Sequence record: MN022785.1
Strand: one strand, 5' to 3'
Origin: Escherichia phage VEc20
Length of the DNA stretch: 64,000 bases
The notes under the pieces: model-generated
The model's database searches: none
Told to the model about the DNA's origin: nothing
What the model saw: the letters and a program-made list of their open reading frames with translations, nothing else
Made by a program: the position numbers and the translations under genes
In this document: piece after piece, positions 5,812-58,104 of the stretch
How the letters are laid out: every line of letters starts with the position of its first letter
Position numbering within the stretch: the first letter of the stretch is position 1

Positions 5812-7320
5812 ATGGATATTAAAGTACATTTTCACGACTTCAGTCATGTACGCATCGATTGTGAAGAGAGCACGTTCCACGAATTAAGAGATTTCTTTTC
5901 GTTTGAGGCCGATGGATATAGATTTAACCCTCGCTTCAGATATGGCAACTGGGATGGGCGAATCCGTCTTTTAGATTATAATCGTCTTCTTCCATTCGGC
6001 TTAGTCGGGCAAATTAAAAAGTTCTGCGATAACTTTGGCTATAAAGCCTGGATTGACCCACAGATTAACGAAAAAGAAGAATTATCAAGAAAAGATTTTG
6101 ATGAATGGCTTTCTAAATTAGAAATCTATTCAGGAAATAAAAGAATTGAACCGCATTGGTATCAAAAAGATGCAGTGTTCGAAGGATTAGTTAATCGTCG
6201 TAGAATTCTTAATCTTCCAACATCCGCTGGTAAATCGTTAATTCAAGCTTTGCTTGCGCGATATTATTTGGAAAATTATGAAGGTAAAATTCTTATCATT
6301 GTTCCAACAACTGCTCTAACAACTCAGATGGCTGATGACTTCGTTGACTATCGTTTATTCAGTCATGCAATGATAAAGAAAATTGGTGGCGGAGCATCAA
6401 AAGATGATAAATATAAAAATGATGCACCAGTCGTTGTTGGTACATGGCAAACTGTAGTAAAACAACCGAAAGAATGGTTCTCACAGTTTGGAATGATGAT
6501 GAATGATGAATGCCATCTTGCTACAGGAAAAAGTATTTCATCTATCATATCAGGTTTAAATAACTGCATGTTCAAATTTGGTCTATCTGGTTCATTACGT
6601 GATGGCAAAGCCAATATCATGCAGTATGTTGGAATGTTTGGTGAAATATTTAAGCCAGTAACGACTTCTAAGTTAATGGAAGATGGACAAGTAACTGAGC
6701 TAAAAATTAATAGTATTTTTCTTCGCTATCCCGATGAGTTCACTACTAAATTAAAGGGAAAAACTTATCAAGAAGAAATAAAAATTATTACGGGGCTTAG
6801 TAAAAGAAATAAATGGATCGCTAAATTGGCTATTAAGCTTGCACAAAAAGATGAAAACGCTTTTGTCATGTTTAAACATGTATCACATGGTAAAGCTATT
6901 TTCGATTTAATTAAAAATGAATACGATAAAGTTTATTACGTATCAGGGGAAGTTGATACCGAAACCCGCAATATAATGAAAACCTTAGCTGAAAATGGTA
7001 AAGGAATAATTATAGTAGCTAGTTATGGTGTATTTTCTACTGGTATTTCAGTTAAAAATCTGCATCACGTTGTTTTAGCGCACGGTGTTAAATCAAAAAT
7101 CATTGTATTACAAACAATCGGTCGTGTATTACGTAAGCATGGTTCTAAAACAATCGCAACAGTCTGGGACCTCATAGATGACTGTGGTGTCAAGCCAAAA
7201 TCTGCTAATACTAAAAAGAAATATGTTCACTTGAACTATCTTTTAAAACACGGCATTGATCGTATTCAGCGCTACGCAGATGAAAAATTTAATTACGTAA
7301 TGAAAACAGTTAATTTATAA
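5812..7320 (+). CDS. uvsW: UvsW DNA helicase
   Basis: 502-aa ORF with Walker A (PTSAGKS) and DECH box. Confidence 0.9.
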   Translation: MDIKVHFHDFSHVRIDCEESTFHELRDFFSFEADGYRFNPRFRYGNWDGRIRLLDYNRLLPFGLVGQIKKFCDNFGYKAWIDPQINEKEELSRKDFDEWLSKLEIYSGNKRIEPHWYQKDAVFEGLVNRRRILNLPTSAGKSLIQALLARYYLENYEGKILIIVPTTALTTQMADDFVDYRLFSHAMIKKIGGGASKDDKYKNDAPVVVGTWQTVVKQPKEWFSQFGMMMNDECHLATGKSISSIISGLNNCMFKFGLSGSLRDGKANIMQYVGMFGEIFKPVTTSKLMEDGQVTELKINSIFLRYPDEFTTKLKGKTYQEEIKIITGLSKRNKWIAKLAIKLAQKDENAFVMFKHVSHGKAIFDLIKNEYDKVYYVSGEVDTETRNIMKTLAENGKGIIIVASYGVFSTGISVKNLHHVVLAHGVKSKIIVLQTIGRVLRKHGSKTIATVWDLIDDCGVKPKSANTKKKYVHLNYLLKHGIDRIQRYADEKFNYVMKTVNL

Positions 7321-7336
7321 GGGCTTCGGCCCTTTG
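7320..7336 (+). terminator. short UUCG hairpin after uvsW
   Basis: GGGC-TTCG-GCCC followed by TTT; weak. Confidence 0.3.
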
Positions 7337-7345
7337 GAGAAAAAG

Positions 7346-7576
7346 ATGTTACTAGAATTTAAACAATTTCTTTATGAAGCTTCTATTGATGAATTTATGG
7401 GTAAAATTGCCTCTTGTCAAACATTAGAAGGTTTAGAAGAACTTGAAGCTTATTATAAGAAAAGAGTTAAAGAAACTGAATTAAAAGATACTGATGACAT
7501 CTCAGTCAGAGATGCTTTGGCAGGAAAAAGAGCTGAATTAGAAGATTCAGACGATGAAGTAGAAGAAAGCTTTTAA
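7346..7576 (+). CDS. uvsW.1: UvsW.1-like small acidic protein
   Basis: 76-aa ORF from the first ATG (7346) with GGAG RBS; the supplied ORF starts at an upstream TTG. Confidence 0.6.
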   Translation: MLLEFKQFLYEASIDEFMGKIASCQTLEGLEELEAYYKKRVKETELKDTDDISVRDALAGKRAELEDSDDEVEESF

Positions 7577-7832: not shown

Positions 7833-8052
7833 CAACTCTCATATGCATATCAATGCCCATATCTTTAGAATAAAAATATTCATCAAGATATCCGGCAAAT
7901 TTTCCTTTAATATAAAGAACATCTTCACCGCACGGGTGGTCAGCCAGGATACGAATATCCTGACGCTTGAGATTATACTTTTTCATTAAGAATTGAATTT
8001 CCGTTTCAAATTCTTCTTCATAATTAAAAGCATCATCAATGCTATATCTCAT
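7828..8052 (-). CDS. hypothetical protein (uvsY.-1-like)
   Basis: 74-aa ORF; TAATG stop/start overlap with uvsY. Confidence 0.55.
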   Translation of the reverse strand: MRYSIDDAFNYEEEFETEIQFLMKKYNLKRQDIRILADHPCGEDVLYIKGKFAGYLDEYFYSKDMGIDMHMRVV

Positions 8053-8465
8053 TATTTTCCAGCCTCAAATGCTCGCATGTCTTGAATATGCTTAATAGCA
8101 AATCCACGTGATTTAATAGCATCAAGAGCTCCGCTACAGAAATCTAATAAAATCCCCCAATACTGTAACGAGGTATCAACCTTTAAAACATCCTTATCAG
8201 CTGATAGAACTGTCTTCATTTCTGATTTCTCGTAACGATCCATACTAAATTCATCACCATCTCCTCGTCCCGAGTAGTAGTCTAATTTAGCTTTAAGAGC
8301 AACTTTTTTCTGTGCTTCAATTCTAAGCATTTCCTTTTTAATACTTGAATGCTTATTAAGCCATTTACTATATAACATCACATTATTAGCTGCTTCATAT
8401 TGTAATTTAGTCGAATCTATAAACACATCTTTCTTCAATTCTTCTTGAAGATCTTCTAATTTCAT
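8052..8465 (-). CDS. uvsY: recombination mediator UvsY
   Basis: 137-aa ORF, the T4 UvsY length, between genes 25 and uvsW. Confidence 0.9.
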   Translation of the reverse strand: MKLEDLQEELKKDVFIDSTKLQYEAANNVMLYSKWLNKHSSIKKEMLRIEAQKKVALKAKLDYYSGRGDGDEFSMDRYEKSEMKTVLSADKDVLKVDTSLQYWGILLDFCSGALDAIKSRGFAIKHIQDMRAFEAGK

Positions 8466-8505
8466 ACTGTTCTCTATTCAATTGTTATTGGATGGACTTA
8501 GATTC

Positions 8506-8531
8506 ATTATACCACGTTTATACGTGAAGCA
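8506..8531 (-). promoter_or_regulatory. MotA-dependent middle promoter of uvsY
   Basis: Minus strand reads aATGCTTCA-N13-TATAAT; MotA box centred near -30, directly abutting the gene 25 stop codon. Confidence 0.6.
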
Positions 8532-8930
8532 TTATACTCTATTACTGGAAGCCAGTTGCAGTTTTATCTGCTCAATATCATCAGGGTTATCAATGACCGA
8601 AAAGCGTATTTCTACTATCAGAGTATAATCATCATAAACCGGTATTACATTAACTGCTAATTTATCAATACGTGGCTCATAGTTTCTTACTGCGCTTTCG
8701 ATGTTACGCTCAACCGTATCAGCAGTAAGAGGAGTCATATTTTCAAAAAGCTGATCTGATAAATCACATCCAAATTCAGGGTCAAAAGGTCTCGACCCCT
8801 TTCTGGTTGTAATAATTCCTAAAAGACTGTTTTTAATTGACCTTAATCCAAGAGATCTGGAAACGTCTTTGTCCCAATCCATTTTCATTTCTGGGTCAAT
8901 GTCAGAATAAAGCTTATTAATATTTGCCAT
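8532..8930 (-). CDS. 25: baseplate wedge protein gp25
   Basis: 132-aa ORF, T4 gp25 length and position. Confidence 0.85.
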   Translation of the reverse strand: MANINKLYSDIDPEMKMDWDKDVSRSLGLRSIKNSLLGIITTRKGSRPFDPEFGCDLSDQLFENMTPLTADTVERNIESAVRNYEPRIDKLAVNVIPVYDDYTLIVEIRFSVIDNPDDIEQIKLQLASSNRV

Positions 8931-16586: not shown

Positions 16587-18683
16587 TTATCCTTGAACGA
16601 ACTTGTAAGGCATGTTTGTAATATCTATGCAAGACGCAATAATTCCAAGAGATGATTCGACTTTCTGTTTAACATTTGATGAAACAAATGATGCAAAATC
16701 AACTCTATCTTCTATTTCAATATCACCAGTCATTGCAACTACTTCACCAGTTTCCATTAGACGGTCACCGTCATAAATTACTGATTCGGTGAGTTCTTCC
16801 GTAGTCATAACTTCAGCTTGAATGAGTTTTGTATTATTAGATGTTGTTCCGTCGTTATTAGAAGCATCAGTTATTTTATTGACTTTGACCATCAATCCAC
16901 GCGGTAGAATAACTTCAGCTTCTGTTGCTATTCCGAGACTTCCTGGATATACAACATTAACTTTATGAGCTCCATCAATTGCCCATCCTATTTGAACTTT
17001 AACGTATTCAGGATTTTCTTTATACGCTCTTATTTCGTTTGGATTAATAGTTATTCCTTCTTCATTTTTATCAACTGTTAATTCATTGCGAGCTTCTGGT
17101 TCTAAAAGACCAATACCAGCATGTGTAATTCCAAAACGTCCAAAAATGATAGGAGTTAAAGAAGTAGATACAAAATTTCTGAAATAGAATACTTTATTTT
17201 TAACTAGTGCTTCGTATATAGGAGCAGTCATACTTTGAGCACGATAAACTGTAATGCCTTCTGGTATACGATCACCATTTTCAAAAGCAGAATCTAAATT
17301 AGTTATAGCAGCTTCAATTTCTTTTTCACTCATTACTTCATAACGTTCTGGATCATAACGACCCAAAAGAAGATTATTGATGTCAGTATATCCTGAACCG
17401 CAATACTCTCTAATGCCACGCTTTTGTGATGGAGTATATTTAGAACCATCACGGGCAATAGTAATATCAATCATTGGACCTGCACCAATTCCAGAGAAAC
17501 TATAAATCATTCTTTTGAGGAATTTAGTTTTTGTCGCGTTCCAGGAATTTTTAGTTATTTCTTCCCAGACTTCATCTGGCTGTCCTTTACGGGTTTTATT
17601 ATGTTTATCAAGCCAAGTATCTTTATATTCTTCAAATAATTGATTAACAGCTGCTGCGTATTTCTCTAAACATTTTATTGAAGTAGTCGGTTCATTTTTA
17701 ATCGCATTAAGAATTACATCTTTAATTTTTTCAGAAACTTCATTAACCTCACTTTTTGAAAAGAATTTATAGTCATAATGAAGTTCATCTGCAGTTCCTT
17801 CGGCAATGATTTTTGCTGCCTTAGTTTTAGAAGCTAATGAATTAATTCCAATTTTCATTTCTTCTGCTTCGGGAATTAAAGGTGCAGTAGCTGGTTTATT
17901 AAAATTAGCTGCTGTAGATTCATACTTCTGGAATAATTCACTTTCAAATCTAGAAGACTCTAATGATTGACTTTGTGCAATTGCTCTACGGGAAATTTTA
18001 ACTTTAACGATTACAGCTTGGTCAGAACGTTTATCATTTTCTTGTGCAATAGATGCTGCAATTGCCTCATTTTTAGTTACTTGAGCTCCAGTATCTTTAT
18101 TGATATAAACATCACCGACCTTCGATTCAACTTTAGTAAAGAGCTCGGTACTAATTTCCGGAACCCCTGGAATGTCTTCTAGTGATACATTTTTGCGATG
18201 TATAAGAATATATGCATACTTTTTATCATAATCCCAGAGTTCCTTAAGAAGGACGTATCTGCCACCTGAACGACTACGGATAAGTCTATCAGCAATAACT
18301 TGAATTTGTCGAGCTTGACCAGCAGTTTTAGACTTAAGAATACGGAGCATACAGGCATCAATTTTATACTGACGCATTGTTTGCATTGCAACAGTAAAAA
18401 CCGAATTGATATAATTAATTGGGCTTGGACCAAGACCTTTCAATTTAGCAATTGAACCTTTAGCGGTTAATGTAAAAGGAACAATATGCATCATTTTATC
18501 GCCCATCTTTAAATCACGATTAGTATCACCTCCAGATGTATAGGTACATAAACGAAAGCCTGGTTGTTCAATTGCATCATCAACATGAACTGAAAAAATT
18601 TGTGGTATTTTCTTCTTTGGATTTAAGTTTGTAATCGGAAGAGTAGTATCTTCGTCAAATAATTCTGTAATTAGTTCCATCAT
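16587..18683 (-). CDS. alt: ADP-ribosyltransferase Alt (packaged RNA-polymerase-modifying enzyme)
   Basis: 698-aa ORF; ART-like motifs (R...STS...EAE) in the C-terminal half; late promoter upstream. Confidence 0.85.
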   Translation of the reverse strand: MMELITELFDEDTTLPITNLNPKKKIPQIFSVHVDDAIEQPGFRLCTYTSGGDTNRDLKMGDKMMHIVPFTLTAKGSIAKLKGLGPSPINYINSVFTVAMQTMRQYKIDACMLRILKSKTAGQARQIQVIADRLIRSRSGGRYVLLKELWDYDKKYAYILIHRKNVSLEDIPGVPEISTELFTKVESKVGDVYINKDTGAQVTKNEAIAASIAQENDKRSDQAVIVKVKISRRAIAQSQSLESSRFESELFQKYESTAANFNKPATAPLIPEAEEMKIGINSLASKTKAAKIIAEGTADELHYDYKFFSKSEVNEVSEKIKDVILNAIKNEPTTSIKCLEKYAAAVNQLFEEYKDTWLDKHNKTRKGQPDEVWEEITKNSWNATKTKFLKRMIYSFSGIGAGPMIDITIARDGSKYTPSQKRGIREYCGSGYTDINNLLLGRYDPERYEVMSEKEIEAAITNLDSAFENGDRIPEGITVYRAQSMTAPIYEALVKNKVFYFRNFVSTSLTPIIFGRFGITHAGIGLLEPEARNELTVDKNEEGITINPNEIRAYKENPEYVKVQIGWAIDGAHKVNVVYPGSLGIATEAEVILPRGLMVKVNKITDASNNDGTTSNNTKLIQAEVMTTEELTESVIYDGDRLMETGEVVAMTGDIEIEDRVDFASFVSSNVKQKVESSLGIIASCIDITNMPYKFVQG

Positions 18684-24509: not shown

Positions 24510-24845
24510 TCACTTATAAAGACACGGAATAGCTTTATAGTGACAGGTAACAAATTTTTGTTTAATTTCTTTTGGCTGCTTAAGACCCAGAGCTACAAAA
24601 GGATGCGGAACATTTCGAATTTGACCAACTGGGAGAGAAGTCAAATCACCAACTTCGCAGAAACCTTCAGGAACATCAGGACCGACAGAGTGAATTACAC
24701 ACAGTTCAGGAACTTCACCTTGAACACGTTTACCGATAATAAGTCCTGATTCTGTAACTTCTTCATCACCGGCTTGTGAAGGTTCAGAAACTAAAATAAC
24801 ATATTCACCGACAGCGCGAATTGGTAGCTGTTGTACTTCAGACAT
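24510..24845 (-). CDS. 31: co-chaperonin gp31 (GroES analogue)
   Basis: 111-aa [22 protein letters not shown]... recognised as T4 gp31. Confidence 0.9.
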
Positions 24846-24875
24846 CGTTTTTCCTTTTTGTTAACAGATGAGTTA

Positions 24876-24900
24876 ATAATAACAAATAATTCTTAAAGCA
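24876..24900 (-). promoter_or_regulatory. MotA-dependent middle promoter of gene 31
   Basis: Minus strand AATGCTTTAA-N12-TATTAT, abutting the upstream ORF stop. Confidence 0.5.
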
Positions 24901-30505: not shown

Positions 30506-32093
<1,588 letters not shown>

Positions 32094-32120: not shown

Positions 32121-33290
32121 TTAAAAATATTTTTTAAAACTCATCATAACTTTATCATCAACATCATTATCAATCTGTGCTACAAGGTAAGATGACAGTT
32201 CTACTTCTTGCGGCGCGGATTGAACATTATCAGAATTAAGGTATTCACGAATCCAAGGATATGGATGTTTAACCGGAGCATCGGTAATTGGGCATGGAAG
32301 ACCGCACTGTTTCATACGAGATACAGTTAAGTAATCAATAAAGCTCCACATGCTATTTGTATTTAATCCAGGAACATCACCATCTTTAAATAAATGAACT
32401 GCCCAATCTTTTTCTTGGCGGTTAACTTCCATGAAAATATCAACTGCTTCTTGTTCACACTCTTGAGCAATTTTAACCCATTCATCGCCATCAGTGCCAA
32501 GTTGAAGTTGACGAATAATATATTGAGTGCCTTTAAGGTGAAGCTGCTCATCACGTGCAATGAACTTCATAATCTTGGCATTACCTTCCATGATTTCCAT
32601 ATTCTTGTGGAAGTTAAAGGTACATGCGAAAGATACATAAAAACGAATAGCTTCTAAGGCATTAATAACGTGCAAACAGAGGTAAAGAGATTTCATTAGC
32701 TCTCGTTTGGCGTATTCAACGACTTTACCAAGTTCATCTTTGCGCCAACCTTCAGACAAAATTCCTTCGTATTCTTCTTTAGCGTTTTCCCAATAACGAG
32801 TTTTAATCAGAACATCATCATAATAACGTCCAATGGATTCAGCACGTTTCATAATAGCTTCATCTAGTACAATCTCATCAAATACCTTTGACGGATCAGT
32901 ATAAAGATTTCGCATGATATGTGTATATGAACGGCTGTGAATAGTTTCACTAAAAGTCCATGTAGCAACCCATGTATCAAGGCTTGGGTCTGAAATTAAT
33001 GACATAAGTACAGCAGACGGTGCACGACCCTGAATGCTATCCAAAAGTGATTGATACTTCAGGTTATTAGTAAAAATATTTTGCTGATACTGAGGAAGCT
33101 TATTAAACTGTGCAGCATCCATCATTAAGTTTACTTCTTCAGGACGCCAGAAAAATGATAAAGATTTCTCAATAAGTTCTTCAAATACTCTATGCCGTTG
33201 AATATCATATCGAGCTAAACCCAATCCAGAACCAAAAAACATCGGCTCAGTCAAAATATTAACAGGGGATGTATTAAAAACTGTACTCAT
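32121..33290 (-). CDS. nrdB: ribonucleotide reductase small subunit NrdB (uninterrupted)
   Basis: Continuous 389-aa ORF with no intron. Confidence 0.9.
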   Translation of the reverse strand: MSTVFNTSPVNILTEPMFFGSGLGLARYDIQRHRVFEELIEKSLSFFWRPEEVNLMMDAAQFNKLPQYQQNIFTNNLKYQSLLDSIQGRAPSAVLMSLISDPSLDTWVATWTFSETIHSRSYTHIMRNLYTDPSKVFDEIVLDEAIMKRAESIGRYYDDVLIKTRYWENAKEEYEGILSEGWRKDELGKVVEYAKRELMKSLYLCLHVINALEAIRFYVSFACTFNFHKNMEIMEGNAKIMKFIARDEQLHLKGTQYIIRQLQLGTDGDEWVKIAQECEQEAVDIFMEVNRQEKDWAVHLFKDGDVPGLNTNSMWSFIDYLTVSRMKQCGLPCPITDAPVKHPYPWIREYLNSDNVQSAPQEVELSSYLVAQIDNDVDDKVMMSFKKYF

Positions 33291-43877: not shown

Positions 43878-44795
43878 TCAAAATTCATTAATGCTATTAG
43901 TTAATTTAGAAAGACCCGCTTTTACAAAATATGAATAAATTTTGCCACGCGGTGGTAATTTATATGAATTATAGTAATTCACAATGTTTGAAGCAATATT
44001 ATCAGGAATATAATCAAAATCAATTAGAACTAAATTTTCTTTATAACGATTATATTCAGATTCTGTGAGAAGCACCTTAGCTTGCTCACGGTCATTAGCA
44101 ATAGCTTCAACGATTGAAGTTTTCATTGAAGGAGTTCGTTCACCTTCAACTCTGGTAAACCAAAAGTCAGATCGTACTTTAACTGAAGCAACGTTATCCT
44201 TTTTGTCGCCCTTAAGGATTTTAGTCATACAGTCAATTTCAGCAGAACCGCTTTTAATTTTAACCCATTTCTTATGCATCGGTGACCATTGCTTAACATT
44301 TGGATATTTGTGAAGCTGTGTAAAGTCACCATCCGATGAAATGATTAAAATCTTATGTCCTTCTAAAGAGAACTTTTTAACAAGAACAGCAATGTGGTCA
44401 TCTGCTTCATACTTATCAATATCCATAACAATGTATGGCATATAAGCTTTCAATTCATCTATAACTTTATGGCTGGATTCAAAATAACCTTCCCAGTCCC
44501 AAGTAGATTCTTCTCGTGCTTTTCCACGGTTTTTCTTGTAATAATACGCGAAATCACGACGCCAATATCCAGATTTCGCGTTATCAATACACAGTACAAT
44601 TTTAGTGTATCCAAGTGTTTTTGCTTTTTTGACATTAAACTTAATTGAGTTCAATATCAAATGACGAACCATTGATAAATTAATTTTTTCTTTATCTGGG
44701 AAGTTTACCAGAGCAGTTGAAAGAGCAATTTGACTAAAGTCAATAAAGCAAATTCCTTCTTTGTAATCTTCATCCAGCATCATTTCTAAATCCAT
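43878..44795 (-). CDS. rnh: RNase H / 5'-3' exonuclease
   Basis: 305 aa from ATG 44795 (MDLEMMLDEDYKEG...) with RBS GAGG; the supplied ORF starts at an upstream TTG. Confidence 0.85.
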   Translation of the reverse strand: MDLEMMLDEDYKEGICFIDFSQIALSTALVNFPDKEKINLSMVRHLILNSIKFNVKKAKTLGYTKIVLCIDNAKSGYWRRDFAYYYKKNRGKAREESTWDWEGYFESSHKVIDELKAYMPYIVMDIDKYEADDHIAVLVKKFSLEGHKILIISSDGDFTQLHKYPNVKQWSPMHKKWVKIKSGSAEIDCMTKILKGDKKDNVASVKVRSDFWFTRVEGERTPSMKTSIVEAIANDREQAKVLLTESEYNRYKENLVLIDFDYIPDNIASNIVNYYNSYKLPPRGKIYSYFVKAGLSKLTNSINEF

Positions 44796-44899: not shown

Positions 44900-47800
44900 A
44901 TGGCCGAGATTAAAAGAAAGTTCAGAGCAGAAGATGGTCTGGACGCAGGTGGCGATAAAATAATCAACGTAGCTTTAGCTGATCGTACCGTAGGAACTGA
45001 CGGTGTTAACGTTGATTACTTAATTCAAGAAAACACAGTTCAGCAATATGATCCAACTCGTGGATATTTAAAAGATTTTGTAATCATTTATAATAATCGT
45101 TTTTGGGCAGCAACGGATAATATTCCAAAACCTGCTGGAAATTTTAATAGAATTCGTTGGAAAGCATTACGTACTGATGCCGTATATACAACCGTATCAT
45201 CTGGACCATATCAATTAAAATCCGGAGAAGCAATTTCAGTAGATACATCAGTTGGCAATGACATTGAGTTTACTTTACCAGCTTCTCCGCTTGATGGAGA
45301 AACCGTAATAATTCAAGATATCGGTGGAAAACCTGGCATAAATCAGGTTAAAATAAATTCTTCAAATCAGAGTATTGTCAATTTTAGAGGTGAACAGGTA
45401 CGTTCAGTTTTAATGACTCATCCAAAGTCACAGATGGTATTCATTTTTAATAATCGTTTGTGGCAAATGTATATTGCTGATTATAGCAGAGAAGCTGCGA
45501 TTGTTACTCCATCGACTGCATATCAAGCACAATCTAATGATTTTATCGTACGTAGATTTACTTCTGCCGCGCCGATTAATGTTAAGCTCCCAAGATTTGC
45601 CAATCATGGAGATATCATTAATTTCGTTGATTTAGATAAATTAAATCCACTTTATCATACAATTGTTACGACATATGATGAAACGACGTCAGTGCAAGAA
45701 GTTGGAACTCATTCCATTGAAGGCCGTACATCGATTGACGGTTTCTTGATGTTTGATGATAATGAGAAATTGTGGAGATTGTTTGACGGGGATAGTAATG
45801 CGCGTTTACGCATTATAACAACTAATTCTAATATTCGTCCAAATGAAGAAGTCATGGTATTTGGCGCGAATAATGGAACAACCCAAACAATTGAACTTCA
45901 GCTTCCAACCGATATTTCCATTGGTGATACTGTTAAAATTTCCATGAATTACATGAGAAAAGGACAAACAGTTAAAATCAAAGCTGCCGGTGAAGATAAA
46001 ATTGCTTCTTCAGTTCAATTGCTGCAATTCCCAAAACGCTCAGAATATCCGCCTGAAGCTGAATGGGTAACAGTTCAAGAATTAGTTTTTAATGGTGAAA
46101 CTAATTATGTACCAGTTTTGCAACTTGCTTATATAGAAGATTCTAATGGAAAATACTGGGTTGTACAGCAAAACGTTCCGACAGTTGAAAGAGTCGATTC
46201 TTTAAATAATTCTACTAGAGCAAGATTAGGCGTAATTGCTTTAGCTACGCAAGCTCAAGCAAATGTCGATTTAGAAAATTCTCCACAAAAAGAATTAGCA
46301 ATTACTCCAGAAACGTTAGCTAATCGTACTGCTACTGAAACTCGCAGAGGTATTGCAAGAATAGCAACTACTGCTCAAGTGAATCAGAACACCACATTCT
46401 CTTTTGCAGATGACCTTATCATCACTCCTAAAAAGCTGAATGAAAGAACTGCTACAGAAACTCGTAGAGGTGTCGCTGAAATTGCTACGCAGCAGGAAAC
46501 TAATACAGGTACTGATGATACTACAATCATCACTCCTAAAAAGCTTCAAGCTCGTCAAGGTTCTGAATCATTATCTGGTATTGTAACTTTTGTATCTACC
46601 GCAGAAGCTACTCCAGCTTCTAGCCGTGAATTAAATGGTACGAATGTTTATAATAAAAACACTAATAATTTAGTTGTTTCACCTAAAGCTTTGGATCAGT
46701 ATAAAGCTACTCCAACGCAACAAGGCGCAGTAATTTTAGCAGTTGAAAGTGAAGTAATTGCTGGACAAAGCCAAGAAGGATGGGCAAATGCGGTTGTAAC
46801 GCCAGAAACGTTACATAAAAAGACATCAACTGATGCAAGAATTGGTTTAATTGAAATTGCTACACAAAGCGAAGTTAATACAGGAACTGATTATACTCGT
46901 GCAGTCACTCCTAAAACTTTAAATGACCGTAGAGCAACTGAAAGTTTAAGTGGTATAGCTGAAATTGCTACACAGGTTGAATTCGACGCAGGCGTCGACG
47001 ATACTCGTATCTCTACACCATTAAAAATTAAAACCAGATTTAATAGTACTGATCGTACTTCTGTTGTTGCTCTATCTGGATTAGTTGAATCAGGAACTCT
47101 CTGGGACCATTATACCCTTAATATTCTTGAAGCAAATGAGACACAGCGTGGTACACTTCGTGTAGCTACACAAGTTGAAGCTGCTGCAGGAACATTAGAT
47201 AATGTTTTGATAACTCCTAAAAAGCTTTTAGGTACTAAATCTACTGAAGCACAGGAAGGTGTCATTAAAGTTGCAACTCAGTCTGAAACTGTGGCTGGAA
47301 CGTCAGCAAATACTGCTGTATCTCCAAAAAATTTAAAATGGATTGTGCAGAGTGAACCTACTTGGGCAGCTACTACTGCAATAAGAGGTTTTGTTAAAAC
47401 TTCATCTGGTTCAATTACATTCGTTGGTAATGATACGGTAGGTTCAACACAGCCATTAGAATCATATGAGAAAAATGGTTATGCAGTATCACCATATGAA
47501 TTAAATCGCGTATTAGCAAATTATTTGCCATTAAAAGCAAAAGCTGTAGATAGTAATTTATTAGATGGTCTAGATTCGCTCCAGTTCATTCGTAGGGACA
47601 TTGCACAAACAGTTAATGGTTCACTAACCTTAACCCAACAAACGAATCTGAGTGCCCCTCTTGTATCATCTAGTACTGCTACATTCGGTGGATCAGTTTC
47701 AGCAAATAGTACATTAACTATTTCTAATACTGGAACGGCAACTCGTCTGATTTTTGAGAAAGGACCTCAAACTGGAACAAACCCAGCTCAAACGATGACA

Positions 47801-55218: not shown

Positions 55219-55491
55219 TTATTTGTTCGTATACATCTCTAAATATCGATATACACTCTCAAAACCCTCGTTGAATTCGTCGATGAGGGTTTTCTTATCT
55301 TCTTGAGTTAATTCAGAAACAATTTTACGGAATGAATTCTGATTTAACTTTCTACCTTCATGCGTTACTCCAATCTCATTCAGAAATGCAATAAAATTAG
55401 CACGATTTTCAACAATATCTTCTCTGGAAAATTTAATCAAAATAGACGCAACAGTAATAATTTCACGAACTGTATCAATGTTTTTATTCAT
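55219..55491 (-). CDS. asiA: anti-sigma70 protein AsiA
   Basis: 90-aa ORF MNKNIDTVREIITVASILIKFSRED... recognised as T4 AsiA. Confidence 0.9.
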   Translation of the reverse strand: MNKNIDTVREIITVASILIKFSREDIVENRANFIAFLNEIGVTHEGRKLNQNSFRKIVSELTQEDKKTLIDEFNEGFESVYRYLEMYTNK

Positions 55492-57468: not shown

Positions 57469-58104
57469 TCACAGTTCAGATGCTACAGTGATTACAACTT
57501 CAATATTTTCTGCCGAGCGTTTAATGTCAAGATACACATTACCGTTTTTAGCGATTTTACATGACATTCCGATATCAGTAAATTTCTGAATATGATGTTC
57601 CATCATTTTGTATCCAAAAATTCGCATATTTCCATTATTGTTAATTTCAAAATTACGAATTCCGTGAGTGCGTTTTTCTAAAATGGCAAGATAATTACTA
57701 CGATAAGTTTCAACCTTTTTAAGAACAAATCCATTTTCATCTAAAAGTTTTAACATGAGGTCTTTATCTTCTTCCATATCAGAAGTAATCTCACGAGCTT
57801 TACGAGTTGCTCGTTTTTTCAGTAGTTCAGGAGCATTTTCCTGTGCATATAAAGTTGCCGCATTTGAAATAATATCCTGAGCTTCACCAGTAATGATTAA
57901 TCCATCACCAGATTTCTCCACCAGGCCTTTTTTAATCAATACCCCAATATTACTATTAACTACTGCGTTACCTAAATCTGGATGCACCTCACGAACTTCT
58001 GCGGCTGTAATGAAATCTTTCTTAGCAATGGTAATTAAAATCGCAGCAGTTTTTTCATTCAGAACATCGTTAGAAGCTTTGATGATGTAAGTTACTTTAG
58101 ACAT
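57469..58104 (-). CDS. motA: middle-transcription activator MotA
   Basis: 211-aa ORF MSKVTYIIKASNDVLNEKTAAILITIAKKDF... recognised as T4 MotA. Confidence 0.85.
   Translation of the reverse strand: MSKVTYIIKASNDVLNEKTAAILITIAKKDFITAAEVREVHPDLGNAVVNSNIGVLIKKGLVEKSGDGLIITGEAQDIISNAATLYAQENAPELLKKRATRKAREITSDMEEDKDLMLKLLDENGFVLKKVETYRSNYLAILEKRTHGIRNFEINNNGNMRIFGYKMMEHHIQKFTDIGMSCKIAKNGNVYLDIKRSAENIEVVITVASEL

What the first reader, a model, noticed from the sequence alone, without database searches (positions are those of the whole stretch)
8506..8531. MotA-box middle promoters abut upstream stop codons; the uvsY one marks a likely replication origin
Three minus-strand sites read TGCTT(T/C)(C)A-N12/13-TA(C/T)(T/A)AT: upstream of uvsY (8506-8531), gene 31 (24876-24900) and rnlA (31657-31682). 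Each MotA box starts within 1-2 nt of the upstream gene's stop codon. In T4 the uvsY middle promoter is the core of the oriF replication origin, so 8450-8540 is a candidate origin here.
Basis: partly seen in the sequence, partly recalled or inferred. Interest (0 to 1): 0.4.

Follow-up and report, generated by a model that had tools for sequence, protein, structure and literature searches.

The report
T4-type uvsY middle promoter / oriF
The flagged sequence is this T4-like phage's copy of the well-studied T4 uvsY middle promoter, which in T4 also serves as the replication origin oriF, so the finding is correct but is textbook biology and not a discovery.

Summary
The window is a Tequatrovirus (T4-like) genome segment, colinear with T4 107.3-168.9 kb at 89-98% identity. 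Site 1 (8506-8531, minus strand) reads TAA|TGCTTCA-N13-TATAAT. It differs from the T4 PuvsY/oriF core by 4 substitutions and one 10-bp indel over 115 aligned columns. Its predicted start, 8499, maps onto the published T4 PuvsY start 115371. Site 2 maps the same way onto published P31 (131540). Site 3, upstream of rnlA, is identical in T4 but is not among the 58 mapped T4 middle promoters, so it remains a candidate. The window encodes MotA (97.6% identical to T4) and AsiA (98.9%), plus RNase H, gp59 and UvsW.

The stop-codon abutment is real for these three sites. For PuvsY it holds (0-1 nt) in four of the five Tevenvirinae lineages compared, and for P31 (0-2 nt) in all five. It is not a general rule: of 19 mapped T4 middle promoters in this span, 2 abut a stop codon and 16 lie inside coding or intron sequence.

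The origin call rests on orthology to T4 oriF, and I did not test function. The window carries one copy of a 10-bp leader unit that T4 has twice. One copy is the norm among relatives.

Verdict: already known, low interest.

The parts
8525..8534 (-). Extended MotA box TAATGCTTCA of the uvsY middle promoter. Its first three bases are the gp25 stop codon TAA (8534-8532).
   Evidence: Sequence read. Identical to T4. The T4 record M77695 annotates a 'mot box' overlapping the end of gene 25. TAAT-GCT is invariant in six Tevenvirinae sequences.
8506..8511 (-). Sigma-70 -10 element TATAAT of PuvsY, 13 nt downstream of TGCTTCA.
   Evidence: TATAATG is invariant across genera. Annotated as TATA_box in M77695.
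8499..8499 (-). Predicted transcription start (A) of PuvsY. In T4 this transcript is also the oriF primer RNA.
   Evidence: Maps to T4 115371, the published PuvsY start (Hinton 2010 Table 1; mapping).
8430..8498 (-). [quoted passage not shown] It contains one copy of CCAATAACAA (8491-8482).
   Evidence: 70-74% A+T, and 80th-95th percentile for low duplex stability in the window. Aligned to T4. The DUE definition comes from PMC3016281. The boundaries are approximate.
8052..8465 (-). uvsY gene (recombination mediator), the gene served by the promoter.
   Evidence: ORF. 98.5% identical to T4 UvsY.
8532..8930 (-). Gene 25 (baseplate wedge subunit), whose stop codon abuts the MotA box.
   Evidence: ORF. 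Annotated in matching records and in T4.
24876..24900 (-). P31 middle promoter: TGCTTTA-N12-TATTAT. The predicted start 24869 equals T4 131540.
   Evidence: The box, the -10 element and a 0-2 nt distance to the 31.1 stop are conserved in Mosigvirus, SP18, Karamvirus and Klebsiella phage Roth01.
31657..31682 (-). Candidate promoter upstream of rnlA: TGCTTCC-N13-TACTAT preceded by TGG (extended -10). Predicted start about 31650.
   Evidence: Identical in T4 but not in the list of mapped T4 middle promoters. Mosigvirus has a sigma-70-type TTTACA-N17-TACAAT at the homologous place.
47109..47134 (-). P34i, the middle promoter of the second R-loop origin oriG/ori(34), antisense inside gene 34. Predicted start 47102.
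   Evidence: One search hit. Maps to T4 P34i start 153011. 160 of 161 bases identical to T4. T4 rep_origin oriG is annotated at 152947.
57472..58104 (-). motA, the activator that binds MotA boxes.
   Evidence: tblastn 97.6% identity over all 211 aa of T4 MotA.
55222..55491 (-). asiA, the anti-sigma co-activator required for middle promoters.
   Evidence: tblastn 98.9% identity over 90 aa.
5812..7320 (+). uvsW helicase. In T4 it unwinds origin R-loops late in infection and so shuts off oriF and oriG.
   Evidence: ORF. 98.2% identical to T4 UvsW. Role taken from PMC3016281.
43881..44795 (-). rnh (RNase H), proposed in T4 to process the R-loop RNA into a primer.
   Evidence: 99.7% identical to T4 RNase H. 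Role taken from PMC3016281.

Best explanation
Window 8499-8534 (minus strand) is the MotA/AsiA-dependent middle promoter of uvsY. Early in infection AsiA remodels region 4 of host sigma-70. MotA then binds the box TAATGCTTCA centred near -30, sigma region 2 reads TATAAT, and transcription starts at A8499. Together with about 50-70 bp of A+T-rich leader and 5' coding sequence downstream, the promoter forms the orthologue of T4 origin oriF/ori(uvsY). By analogy with T4, part of the transcript stays annealed as a persistent R-loop. The R-loop is processed (probably by phage RNase H) into a 3'-OH that primes leading-strand synthesis, and the displaced strand allows gp59 to load the gp41/61 primosome. 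UvsW later unwinds the R-loop.

Site 2 is the ordinary P31 middle promoter, with no origin role known. Site 3 is a plausible but unverified promoter.

The stop-codon abutment follows from genome compaction. Each intergenic gap (66, 56 and 52 nt) is just promoter plus leader, and the A/T-rich stop codon supplies the W-W-W 5' part of the MotA box.

Shown here: sequence identity, position, conservation, and presence of the trans-acting genes. Inferred from T4: MotA dependence, the transcription start, the R-loop and origin firing.
For: - The window is colinear with T4 107.3-168.9 kb at 89-98% identity. The site lies between gp25 and uvsY, as in T4.
- From the MotA box to +70 the window differs from T4 by 4 mismatches and one 10-bp gap in 115 columns.
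- The predicted start 8499 equals the published T4 PuvsY start 115371, and 24869 equals the P31 start 131540.
- T4 records annotate rep_origin oriF, with a note that the primer RNA is the uvsY transcript, and a mot box plus TATA box at this site.
- Kreuzer & Brister 2010 (PMC3016281) give the minimal oriF as about 100 bp, made of a middle-mode promoter plus an A+T-rich DUE. They report that R-loop formation does not depend on specific sequence and that the DUE can be replaced by heterologous unwinding elements.
- The MotA box consensus (a/t)(a/t)(a/t)TGCTTtA lies 12 +/- 1 bp from the -10 element (PMC2988021). Site 1 matches with TAATGCTTCA and a 13-nt spacer.
- MotA, AsiA, RNase H, gp59, gp32 and UvsW are all encoded in the window at 97.6-100% identity to T4.
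- Phylogenetic footprint: in Tequatro-, Mosig-, Gapriver- and Karamvirus the spacer and leader diverge, while TAAT-GCT and TATAATG stay invariant.
- The leader is 70-74% A+T and sits at the 80th-95th percentile for low duplex stability.
Against: - No experiment exists on this phage. The origin role comes entirely from T4.
- The window has one copy of CCAATAACAA in the DUE where T4, the only phage in which oriF was assayed, has two.
- Simple thermodynamic scans (duplex stability, RNA:DNA hybrid against duplex) do not separate the two origin promoters from other middle promoters. PuvsY sits at the 23rd percentile and P34i at the 18th, while P32 and Ptd are more hybrid-favoured. Nothing in the sequence alone marks this promoter as an origin.
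- Even in T4, motA mutations do not abolish replication and several origins are used.
Confidence: 0.8

Rival explanations
1. Site 1 is only the uvsY middle promoter in this phage. Origin activity is peculiar to the T4 lineage, for example linked to its duplicated 10-bp unit, and one-copy phages do not fire from here.
For: The two-copy form is confined to 16 T4-lineage records. At least 478 of 499 matching records carry the one-copy form. All oriF experiments cited were done in T4.
Against: The review states that R-loop formation at oriF does not depend on specific sequence and that the DUE can be replaced by heterologous unwinding elements. The remaining leader is still 70-74% A+T. The promoter, RNase H, gp59 and UvsW are all conserved.
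Confidence: 0.15
2. The rnlA-upstream motif (site 3) is not a MotA-dependent promoter. It is either an extended -10 sigma-70 promoter (TGGTACTAT) that needs no MotA, or a chance match with no activity.
For: It is absent from the table of 58 mapped T4 middle promoters although its sequence is identical in T4. The box ends in C (TGCTTCC), not A. The loose motif also hits four places with no mapped promoter. SP18 and Roth01 have overlapping denA and rnlA genes with no promoter there.
Against: The spacing and the -10 element (TACTAT, the same hexamer as in mapped PdsbA) fit the consensus. Mosigvirus keeps a promoter at the homologous place, TTTACA-N17-TACAAT, with the same GTGG-TAC-AT context and the same SD-ATG block. 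That argues some promoter is maintained here. MotA tolerates deviations in the box.
Confidence: 0.5
3. The juxtaposition of stop codon and MotA box reflects a dedicated coupling mechanism, such as translation termination influencing promoter use, and not simple compaction.
For: The 0-2 nt distance is conserved across genera at both PuvsY and P31 although the spacers diverge.
Against: 16 of 19 mapped T4 middle promoters in this span lie inside coding or intron sequence, and only 2 abut a stop. In Klebsiella phage Roth01 the gp25 frame reads through the whole promoter and ends at the TAA inside TATAAT. The abutment is therefore dispensable. A TAA stop fits the W-W-W 5' part of the box consensus without further explanation.
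Confidence: 0.04
4. All three motifs are chance matches in an A+T-rich genome.
For: The loose pattern is only about 2.5-fold enriched, and 2 of 100 shuffles reach the observed count.
Against: Sites 1 and 2 coincide exactly with mapped T4 promoters and are conserved in other genera with diverged spacers.
Confidence: 0.01

Closest known systems
Bacteriophage T4 PuvsY middle promoter / replication origin oriF = ori(uvsY) (Kreuzer & Alberts 1985; Menkens & Kreuzer 1988; Carles-Kinch & Kreuzer 1997; reviewed in PMC3016281)
   Same: Same locus between gene 25 and uvsY, the same MotA box TAATGCTTCA, the same 13-nt spacing, the same TATAAT, and the same start position. The leader is nearly identical: 4 substitutions in 115 columns.
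   Different: There is one copy of CCAATAACAA in the leader/DUE where T4 has two. Two bases are swapped in the loop of the spacer palindrome (CACGT-ATAA-ACGTG against CACGT-TAAA-ACGTG). Two substitutions lie next to the uvsY ATG. The one-copy form is the common one among relatives. No functional data exist for this phage.
T4 P31 middle promoter (start 131540)
   Same: Site 2 matches in box, 12-nt spacing, TATTAT and start position. It has 2 substitutions in 51 nt.
   Different: Nothing of note. No origin function is known for it.
T4 oriG = ori(34) with promoter P34i
   Same: It has the same architecture as oriF (middle promoter plus DUE, R-loop mechanism presumed) and is also present in this window at 47102-47134, 160 of 161 bases identical to T4.
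   Different: It lies antisense inside gene 34, not in an intergenic gap. The review notes little sequence homology between oriG and oriF.
Transcript-primed origins (ColE1 plasmid origin, mitochondrial DNA origins, E. coli oriK)
   Same: In all of these a promoter-derived RNA stays hybridised and is used or processed as the leading-strand primer (comparison made in PMC3016281).
   Different: They are unrelated in sequence, use host or organelle factors, and have no MotA/AsiA-type promoter.

Membership tests
T4 MotA/AsiA-dependent middle promoter | MotA box (a/t)(a/t)(a/t)TGCTT(t/c)A centred near -30 | tested here: met
   Site 1 reads TAATGCTTCA and site 2 reads AAATGCTTTA. Site 3 reads TGATGCTTCC, which deviates at the last position. 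Consensus taken.
T4 MotA/AsiA-dependent middle promoter | Sigma-70 -10 element TAnnnT lying 12 +/- 1 bp after the box, with no sigma-70 -35 element | tested here: met
   The spacers are 13, 12 and 13 nt. The -10 elements are TATAAT, TATTAT and TACTAT. The sigma-70 -35/-10 scan finds nothing at site 1.
T4 MotA/AsiA-dependent middle promoter | The phage encodes MotA and AsiA | tested here: met
   motA lies at 57472-58104 (97.6% identical to T4) and asiA at 55222-55491 (98.9%).
T4 MotA/AsiA-dependent middle promoter | A mapped, MotA-dependent transcription start | not testable with these tools
   The orthologous T4 positions 115371 (PuvsY) and 131540 (P31) are published starts. No published start was found for the rnlA site. 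The dRNA-seq supplement I searched did not hold these positions as text.
T4 R-loop origin oriF / ori(uvsY) | A middle-mode promoter is an essential component | tested here: met
   Orthologous promoter with the box, the -10 element and the start position identical to T4.
T4 R-loop origin oriF / ori(uvsY) | An A+T-rich DNA unwinding element directly downstream of the promoter | tested here: inconclusive
   Positions +1 to +100 are 70-74% A+T against 64% for the window, and sit at the 80th-95th percentile for low duplex stability. This is not extreme, the element is 10 bp shorter than in T4, and the hybrid-stability scan does not discriminate.
T4 R-loop origin oriF / ori(uvsY) | Sequence and positional orthology with the roughly 100-bp minimal T4 origin | tested here: met
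   4 mismatches and one 10-bp gap over 115 columns, with the same flanking genes.
T4 R-loop origin oriF / ori(uvsY) | Persistent R-loop, autonomous replication of an origin plasmid in infected cells, and initiation seen by 2D gels or arrays | not testable with these tools
   Known for T4 only.
T4 R-loop origin oriF / ori(uvsY) | Trans-acting factors present (RNase H, gp59, gp32, UvsW) | tested here: met
   All four are encoded in the window at 98-100% identity to T4.

The most novel reading that the evidence does not exclude
oriF as characterised in T4 may be partly a T4-lineage peculiarity. The 10-bp unit CCAATAACAA in the unwinding element is duplicated only in T4-lineage records and is present four times in a genome-reduced T4 mutant. 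This window and at least 96% of the matching records listed carry one copy. If copy number tunes R-loop persistence or origin firing (or uvsY translation), one-copy phages could use this promoter weakly, or not at all, as an origin.
Probability: 0.12. Interest if true: 0.35.

Novelty: already known. Interest (0 to 1): 0.1.

Why it matters
It matters little beyond annotation. These can be carried over to its annotation. Three modest by-products may interest specialists. First, the gp25 stop codon doubles as the 5' part of the MotA box, and this double use is kept in four Tevenvirinae genera. Second, T4 itself is the outlier for the 10-bp repeat in the oriF unwinding element. Third, the rnlA-upstream site looks like an unlisted promoter whose upstream element differs between genera: a MotA box in Tequatrovirus and a sigma-70 -35 element in Mosigvirus.

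Tried and rejected
- **Duplex stability.** A nearest-neighbour profile to single out a DUE shows the uvsY leader is less stable than average but not exceptional. The first 50 bp downstream of P34i (oriG) are average (42nd percentile).
- **Hybrid stability.** I scanned RNA:DNA hybrid stability against duplex stability downstream of 19 promoters. One search used the parameter table in the wrong orientation, so its ddG values are discarded. The corrected one search does not separate origin promoters from other promoters.
- **Spacer palindromes.** CACGT-ATAA-ACGTG in PuvsY and CCACA-TGGAG-TGTGG at the rnlA site could have been a functional element. But 4.1% of 20-nt windows contain such a 5-bp inverted repeat, and 3 of 19 promoters have one, so the excess is weak.
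- **Karamvirus look-alike.** An apparent third copy of the rnlA-site palindrome in Karamvirus turned out to be the codons for a CPHCG zinc-finger motif in a homing endonuclease. It is a coincidence.
- **GC skew.** It changes sign around 7.5-9.5 kb and 44-45 kb, but it follows gene orientation, so it is not independent evidence for an origin.
- **Rfam.** The scan of the whole window gave no family at gathering score.
- **IMG/VR.** A scan for natural spacer variants gave only 3 contigs, all of the known types.
- **Literature.** The dRNA-seq T4 TSS table (bioRxiv 10.1101/2024.04.04.588121) is not held in searchable form. Miller et al. 2003 is not held. I therefore could not check whether an rnlA start was ever recorded.

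Full report
**What the window is**

A 701-base stretch around the finding matches about 500 phage records at 90-99% identity, nearly all Escherichia, Shigella or Yersinia T4-like phages. The match lies under genes annotated as the gp25 baseplate wedge subunit and UvsY. Local BLAST against T4 (NC_000866) shows the whole window is colinear with T4 107.3-168.9 kb, from gene 24 to rIIB, at 89-98% identity. No record is identical, and the best 25-kb match is 96.6%. The window is therefore an ordinary mosaic member of the genus Tequatrovirus.

**The observation**

On the minus strand the three sites read exactly as described.
- Site 1: gp25 stop TAA (8534-8532), then TGCTTCA (8531-8525), a 13-nt spacer, and TATAAT (8511-8506). 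The uvsY ATG is at 8465.
- Site 2: gene 31.1 stop TAA (24904-24902), one A, TGCTTTA (24900-24894), a 12-nt spacer, and TATTAT (24881-24876). The gene 31 ATG is at 24845.
- Site 3: denA stop TGA (31685-31683), TGCTTCC (31682-31676), a 13-nt spacer, and TACTAT (31662-31657). The rnlA ATG is at 31630.

The reading frames and stops were verified. The three intergenic gaps are 66, 56 and 52 nt.

The loose pattern is only mildly enriched. It occurs 9 times against 3.54 +/- 1.91 expected, 2 of 100 shuffles reach 9, and all 9 hits are on the minus strand. About half of the hits correspond to no mapped promoter. Motif counting alone would therefore not carry the claim.

**What the sites are**

Hinton's review tabulates 58 mapped T4 middle promoters with their start sites (PMC2988021). 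I extracted the 19 that fall in this span of T4 and mapped them onto the window. Eighteen are present. The exception is PI-TevIII, because the window lacks that stretch.
- Site 1 is PuvsY. Its -10 element places the start at A8499, which aligns with T4 115371, the published start.
- Site 2 is P31. Its start at 24869 aligns with T4 131540.
- Two further hits of the pattern are PdsbA (43971-43995) and P34i (47109-47134).
- Site 3 is identical in T4 but is not in the table.

The consensus quoted in that review is (a/t)(a/t)(a/t)TGCTTtA, lying 12 +/- 1 bp from a sigma-70 -10 element. Sites 1 and 2 fit it fully. Site 3 deviates at the last box position.

The window encodes MotA (57472-58104, 97.6% identical to T4) and AsiA (55222-55491, 98.9%). 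A sigma-70 two-hexamer scan finds no ordinary promoter at site 1.

**The origin**

The T4 records annotate rep_origin oriF (ori uvsY) at 115321, with a note that the primer RNA is the uvsY transcript. That position corresponds to window 8459. An older T4 entry, M77695, annotates a 'mot box' that overlaps the last bases of gene 25, and a TATA box.

Kreuzer and Brister (PMC3016281) summarise the experimental definition as follows.
- About 100 bp suffices for autonomous plasmid replication in infected cells.
- The transcript forms a persistent R-loop in that element.
- RNase H very likely processes the R-loop into a primer, gp59 loads the helicase, and UvsW later removes the R-loop.
- R-loop formation does not need a specific sequence, and the unwinding element can be replaced by heterologous ones.

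From the MotA box to +70 the window differs from T4 by four substitutions and one 10-bp gap over 115 columns. RNase H, gp59, gp32 and UvsW are encoded in the window at 98-100% identity. The leader is 70-74% A+T and lies at the 80th-95th percentile for low duplex stability.

Origin function here is an inference from T4. My attempts to find an intrinsic signature failed. Neither duplex stability nor RNA:DNA hybrid stability against duplex stability separates PuvsY and P34i from the other middle promoters (the ddG values are void because the parameter table was read in the wrong orientation). GC skew simply follows gene orientation.

**The 10-bp difference**

T4 has CCAATAACAA twice in the leader, and the window has it once (8491-8482). 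Of 499 records matching the 92-nt promoter-leader query, at least 478 are 95% or more identical to the one-copy form. A query spanning the two-copy junction finds only 16 records, all T4, T4T, RB55, RB59 or T4 derivatives. T2, Yersinia phage fPS-2, slur08 and three IMG/VR contigs all have one copy. A CRISPR genome-reduced T4 mutant, T4_583L (PMC9825161), has four copies.

The window therefore carries the common form, and T4 is the outlier. Because the unwinding element tolerates replacement, I expect the one-copy element to work. This has not been tested.

**The stop-codon abutment**

Using the T4 annotation and the 19 mapped promoters:
- only PuvsY and P31 have the box next to an upstream stop codon;
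- P24.3 sits about 40 nt from the hoc stop;
- the other 16 lie inside upstream coding sequence, an intron, or antisense in gene 34.

The title's rule is therefore an effect of looking only at intergenic gaps. At these two promoters, however, the arrangement is conserved well beyond Tequatrovirus.

At gp25/uvsY:
- Mosigvirus reads GTG TAA TGCTTCA-N12-TATAAT.
- Gaprivervirus SP18 reads GGT TAA TGCTTTA-N12-TATAAT.
- Karamvirus reads TAA-T-CGCTTTC-N13-TATAAT.
- In Klebsiella phage Roth01 the gp25 frame reads through the box (AGT AAT GCT AAC ...) and ends at the TAA inside TATAAT.

Spacers and leaders are diverged, while TAAT-GCT and TATAATG are invariant.

At 31.1/31 the stop-to-box distance is 0-2 nt in all five lineages.

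More distant relatives behave differently.
- RB49-type and Acinetobacter Ac42 have other promoter types in the gp25-uvsY gap.
- Slopekvirus and Schizotequatrovirus lack the gp25-uvsY synteny.
- This fits the reported absence of motA from RB49-like phages (PMC1524935).

My reading is that the gaps are exactly promoter plus leader, and that the stop codon supplies the W-W-W 5' positions of the box. This is dual use of bases under compaction, not a special coupling mechanism. The Roth01 arrangement shows the abutment is dispensable.

**Site 3**

The site is 95% or more identical in 494 of 498 Tequatrovirus records, which says little at this evolutionary distance.
- In Mosigvirus the homologous place reads TAG-TTTACA-N17-TACAAT. 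This is a sigma-70-type, T4-early-like promoter. It shares the GTGG-TAC-AT context, a spacer palindrome (CCACAA-GGA-TTGTGG against CCACA-TGGAG-TGTGG) and the SD-ATG block with the window.
- In SP18 and Roth01, denA and rnlA overlap and there is no promoter.
- A look-alike in Karamvirus is just the CPHCG codons of a homing endonuclease.

A promoter of some class is probably maintained here in two genera. Whether the Tequatrovirus version depends on MotA is open, and I put it near even odds.

**Comparison and verdict**

Site 1 works like T4 PuvsY/oriF, and by every sequence criterion I could test it is that element. Site 2 is P31. Nothing here would surprise a T4 specialist, so the novelty class is 'already known' and the interest is low.

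My confidence is about 0.95 that site 1 is a MotA-dependent uvsY promoter, about 0.8 for the combined promoter-plus-origin statement, and about 0.5 that site 3 is a MotA-dependent promoter.

Noticed in passing
window 47102-47134 (minus strand), inside gene 34: This is the second T4 R-loop origin, oriG/ori(34), with its antisense middle promoter P34i (TGCTTCA-N13-TATAAT). It is 160 of 161 bases identical to T4. Similar antisense motifs occur inside gene 34 of SP18 and Roth01. A similar motif at Mosigvirus L014:36020 was not checked against gene 34.
   Followed up: partly
window 8482-8491; T4 L001; L022 (T4_583L): The 10-bp unit CCAATAACAA in the uvsY leader / oriF unwinding element varies in copy number. 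The window and at least 478 of 499 matching records have one copy, only 16 T4-lineage records have two, and the genome-reduced mutant T4_583L has four.
   Followed up: yes
window 8512-8524 and 31663-31677 (minus strand): The promoter spacers contain perfect 5-bp inverted repeats (CACGT-ATAA-ACGTG; CCACA-TGGAG-TGTGG). The T4/window differences at PuvsY fall in the loop, and Mosigvirus keeps a CCACAA-GGA-TTGTGG version at the rnlA site. The background rate of such repeats is 4.1% per 20-nt window, so the significance is weak.
   Followed up: partly
window 8490-8498 (minus strand) and L006-L010: Just after the uvsY transcription start a pyrimidine-rich block is conserved across genera although the rest of the leader diverges: AGTCCATCC, GGTCCTTCC, AGTTCCTTGC, GTCCTTCC, GACCCTTAC, and GGTTCCCTCCC in Ac42. 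Its function is unknown.
   Followed up: no
window 5812-7320 and 7334-7576 (plus strand): uvsW is split into a 502-aa ORF and a separate 80-aa ORF (uvsW.1), as also annotated in SP18, Roth01 and the RB49-type phage. The T4 reference record annotates one fused 587-aa UvsW and flags sequence discrepancies there.
   Followed up: no
L023 about 17200-17260 (Karamvirus) and L024 about 17585-17645 (Roth01): At P31 of these relatives an 8-bp inverted repeat brackets the -10 element and the start, with two compensated differences between the phages: GAGCATGA...TCATGCTC against GACCATGT...ACATGGTC. It is absent from the window, Mosigvirus and SP18.
   Followed up: no
window 32623-32626 (against T4 138457-139058) and the other alignment breaks: The window lacks about 600 bp that T4 has in nrdB (the intron/I-TevIII region, including promoter PI-TevIII). 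It also lacks segE next to uvsW. It has extra or diverged segments at about 26.6-27.1 kb, 28.75-29.07 kb and 50.8-54.5 kb (the tail-fibre gene 37/38 region).
   Followed up: no
window 15757, 37133, 42436, 45141 (minus strand): These four further matches to the loose MotA-box/-10 pattern correspond to no mapped T4 middle promoter. They are probably false positives but were not examined.
   Followed up: no
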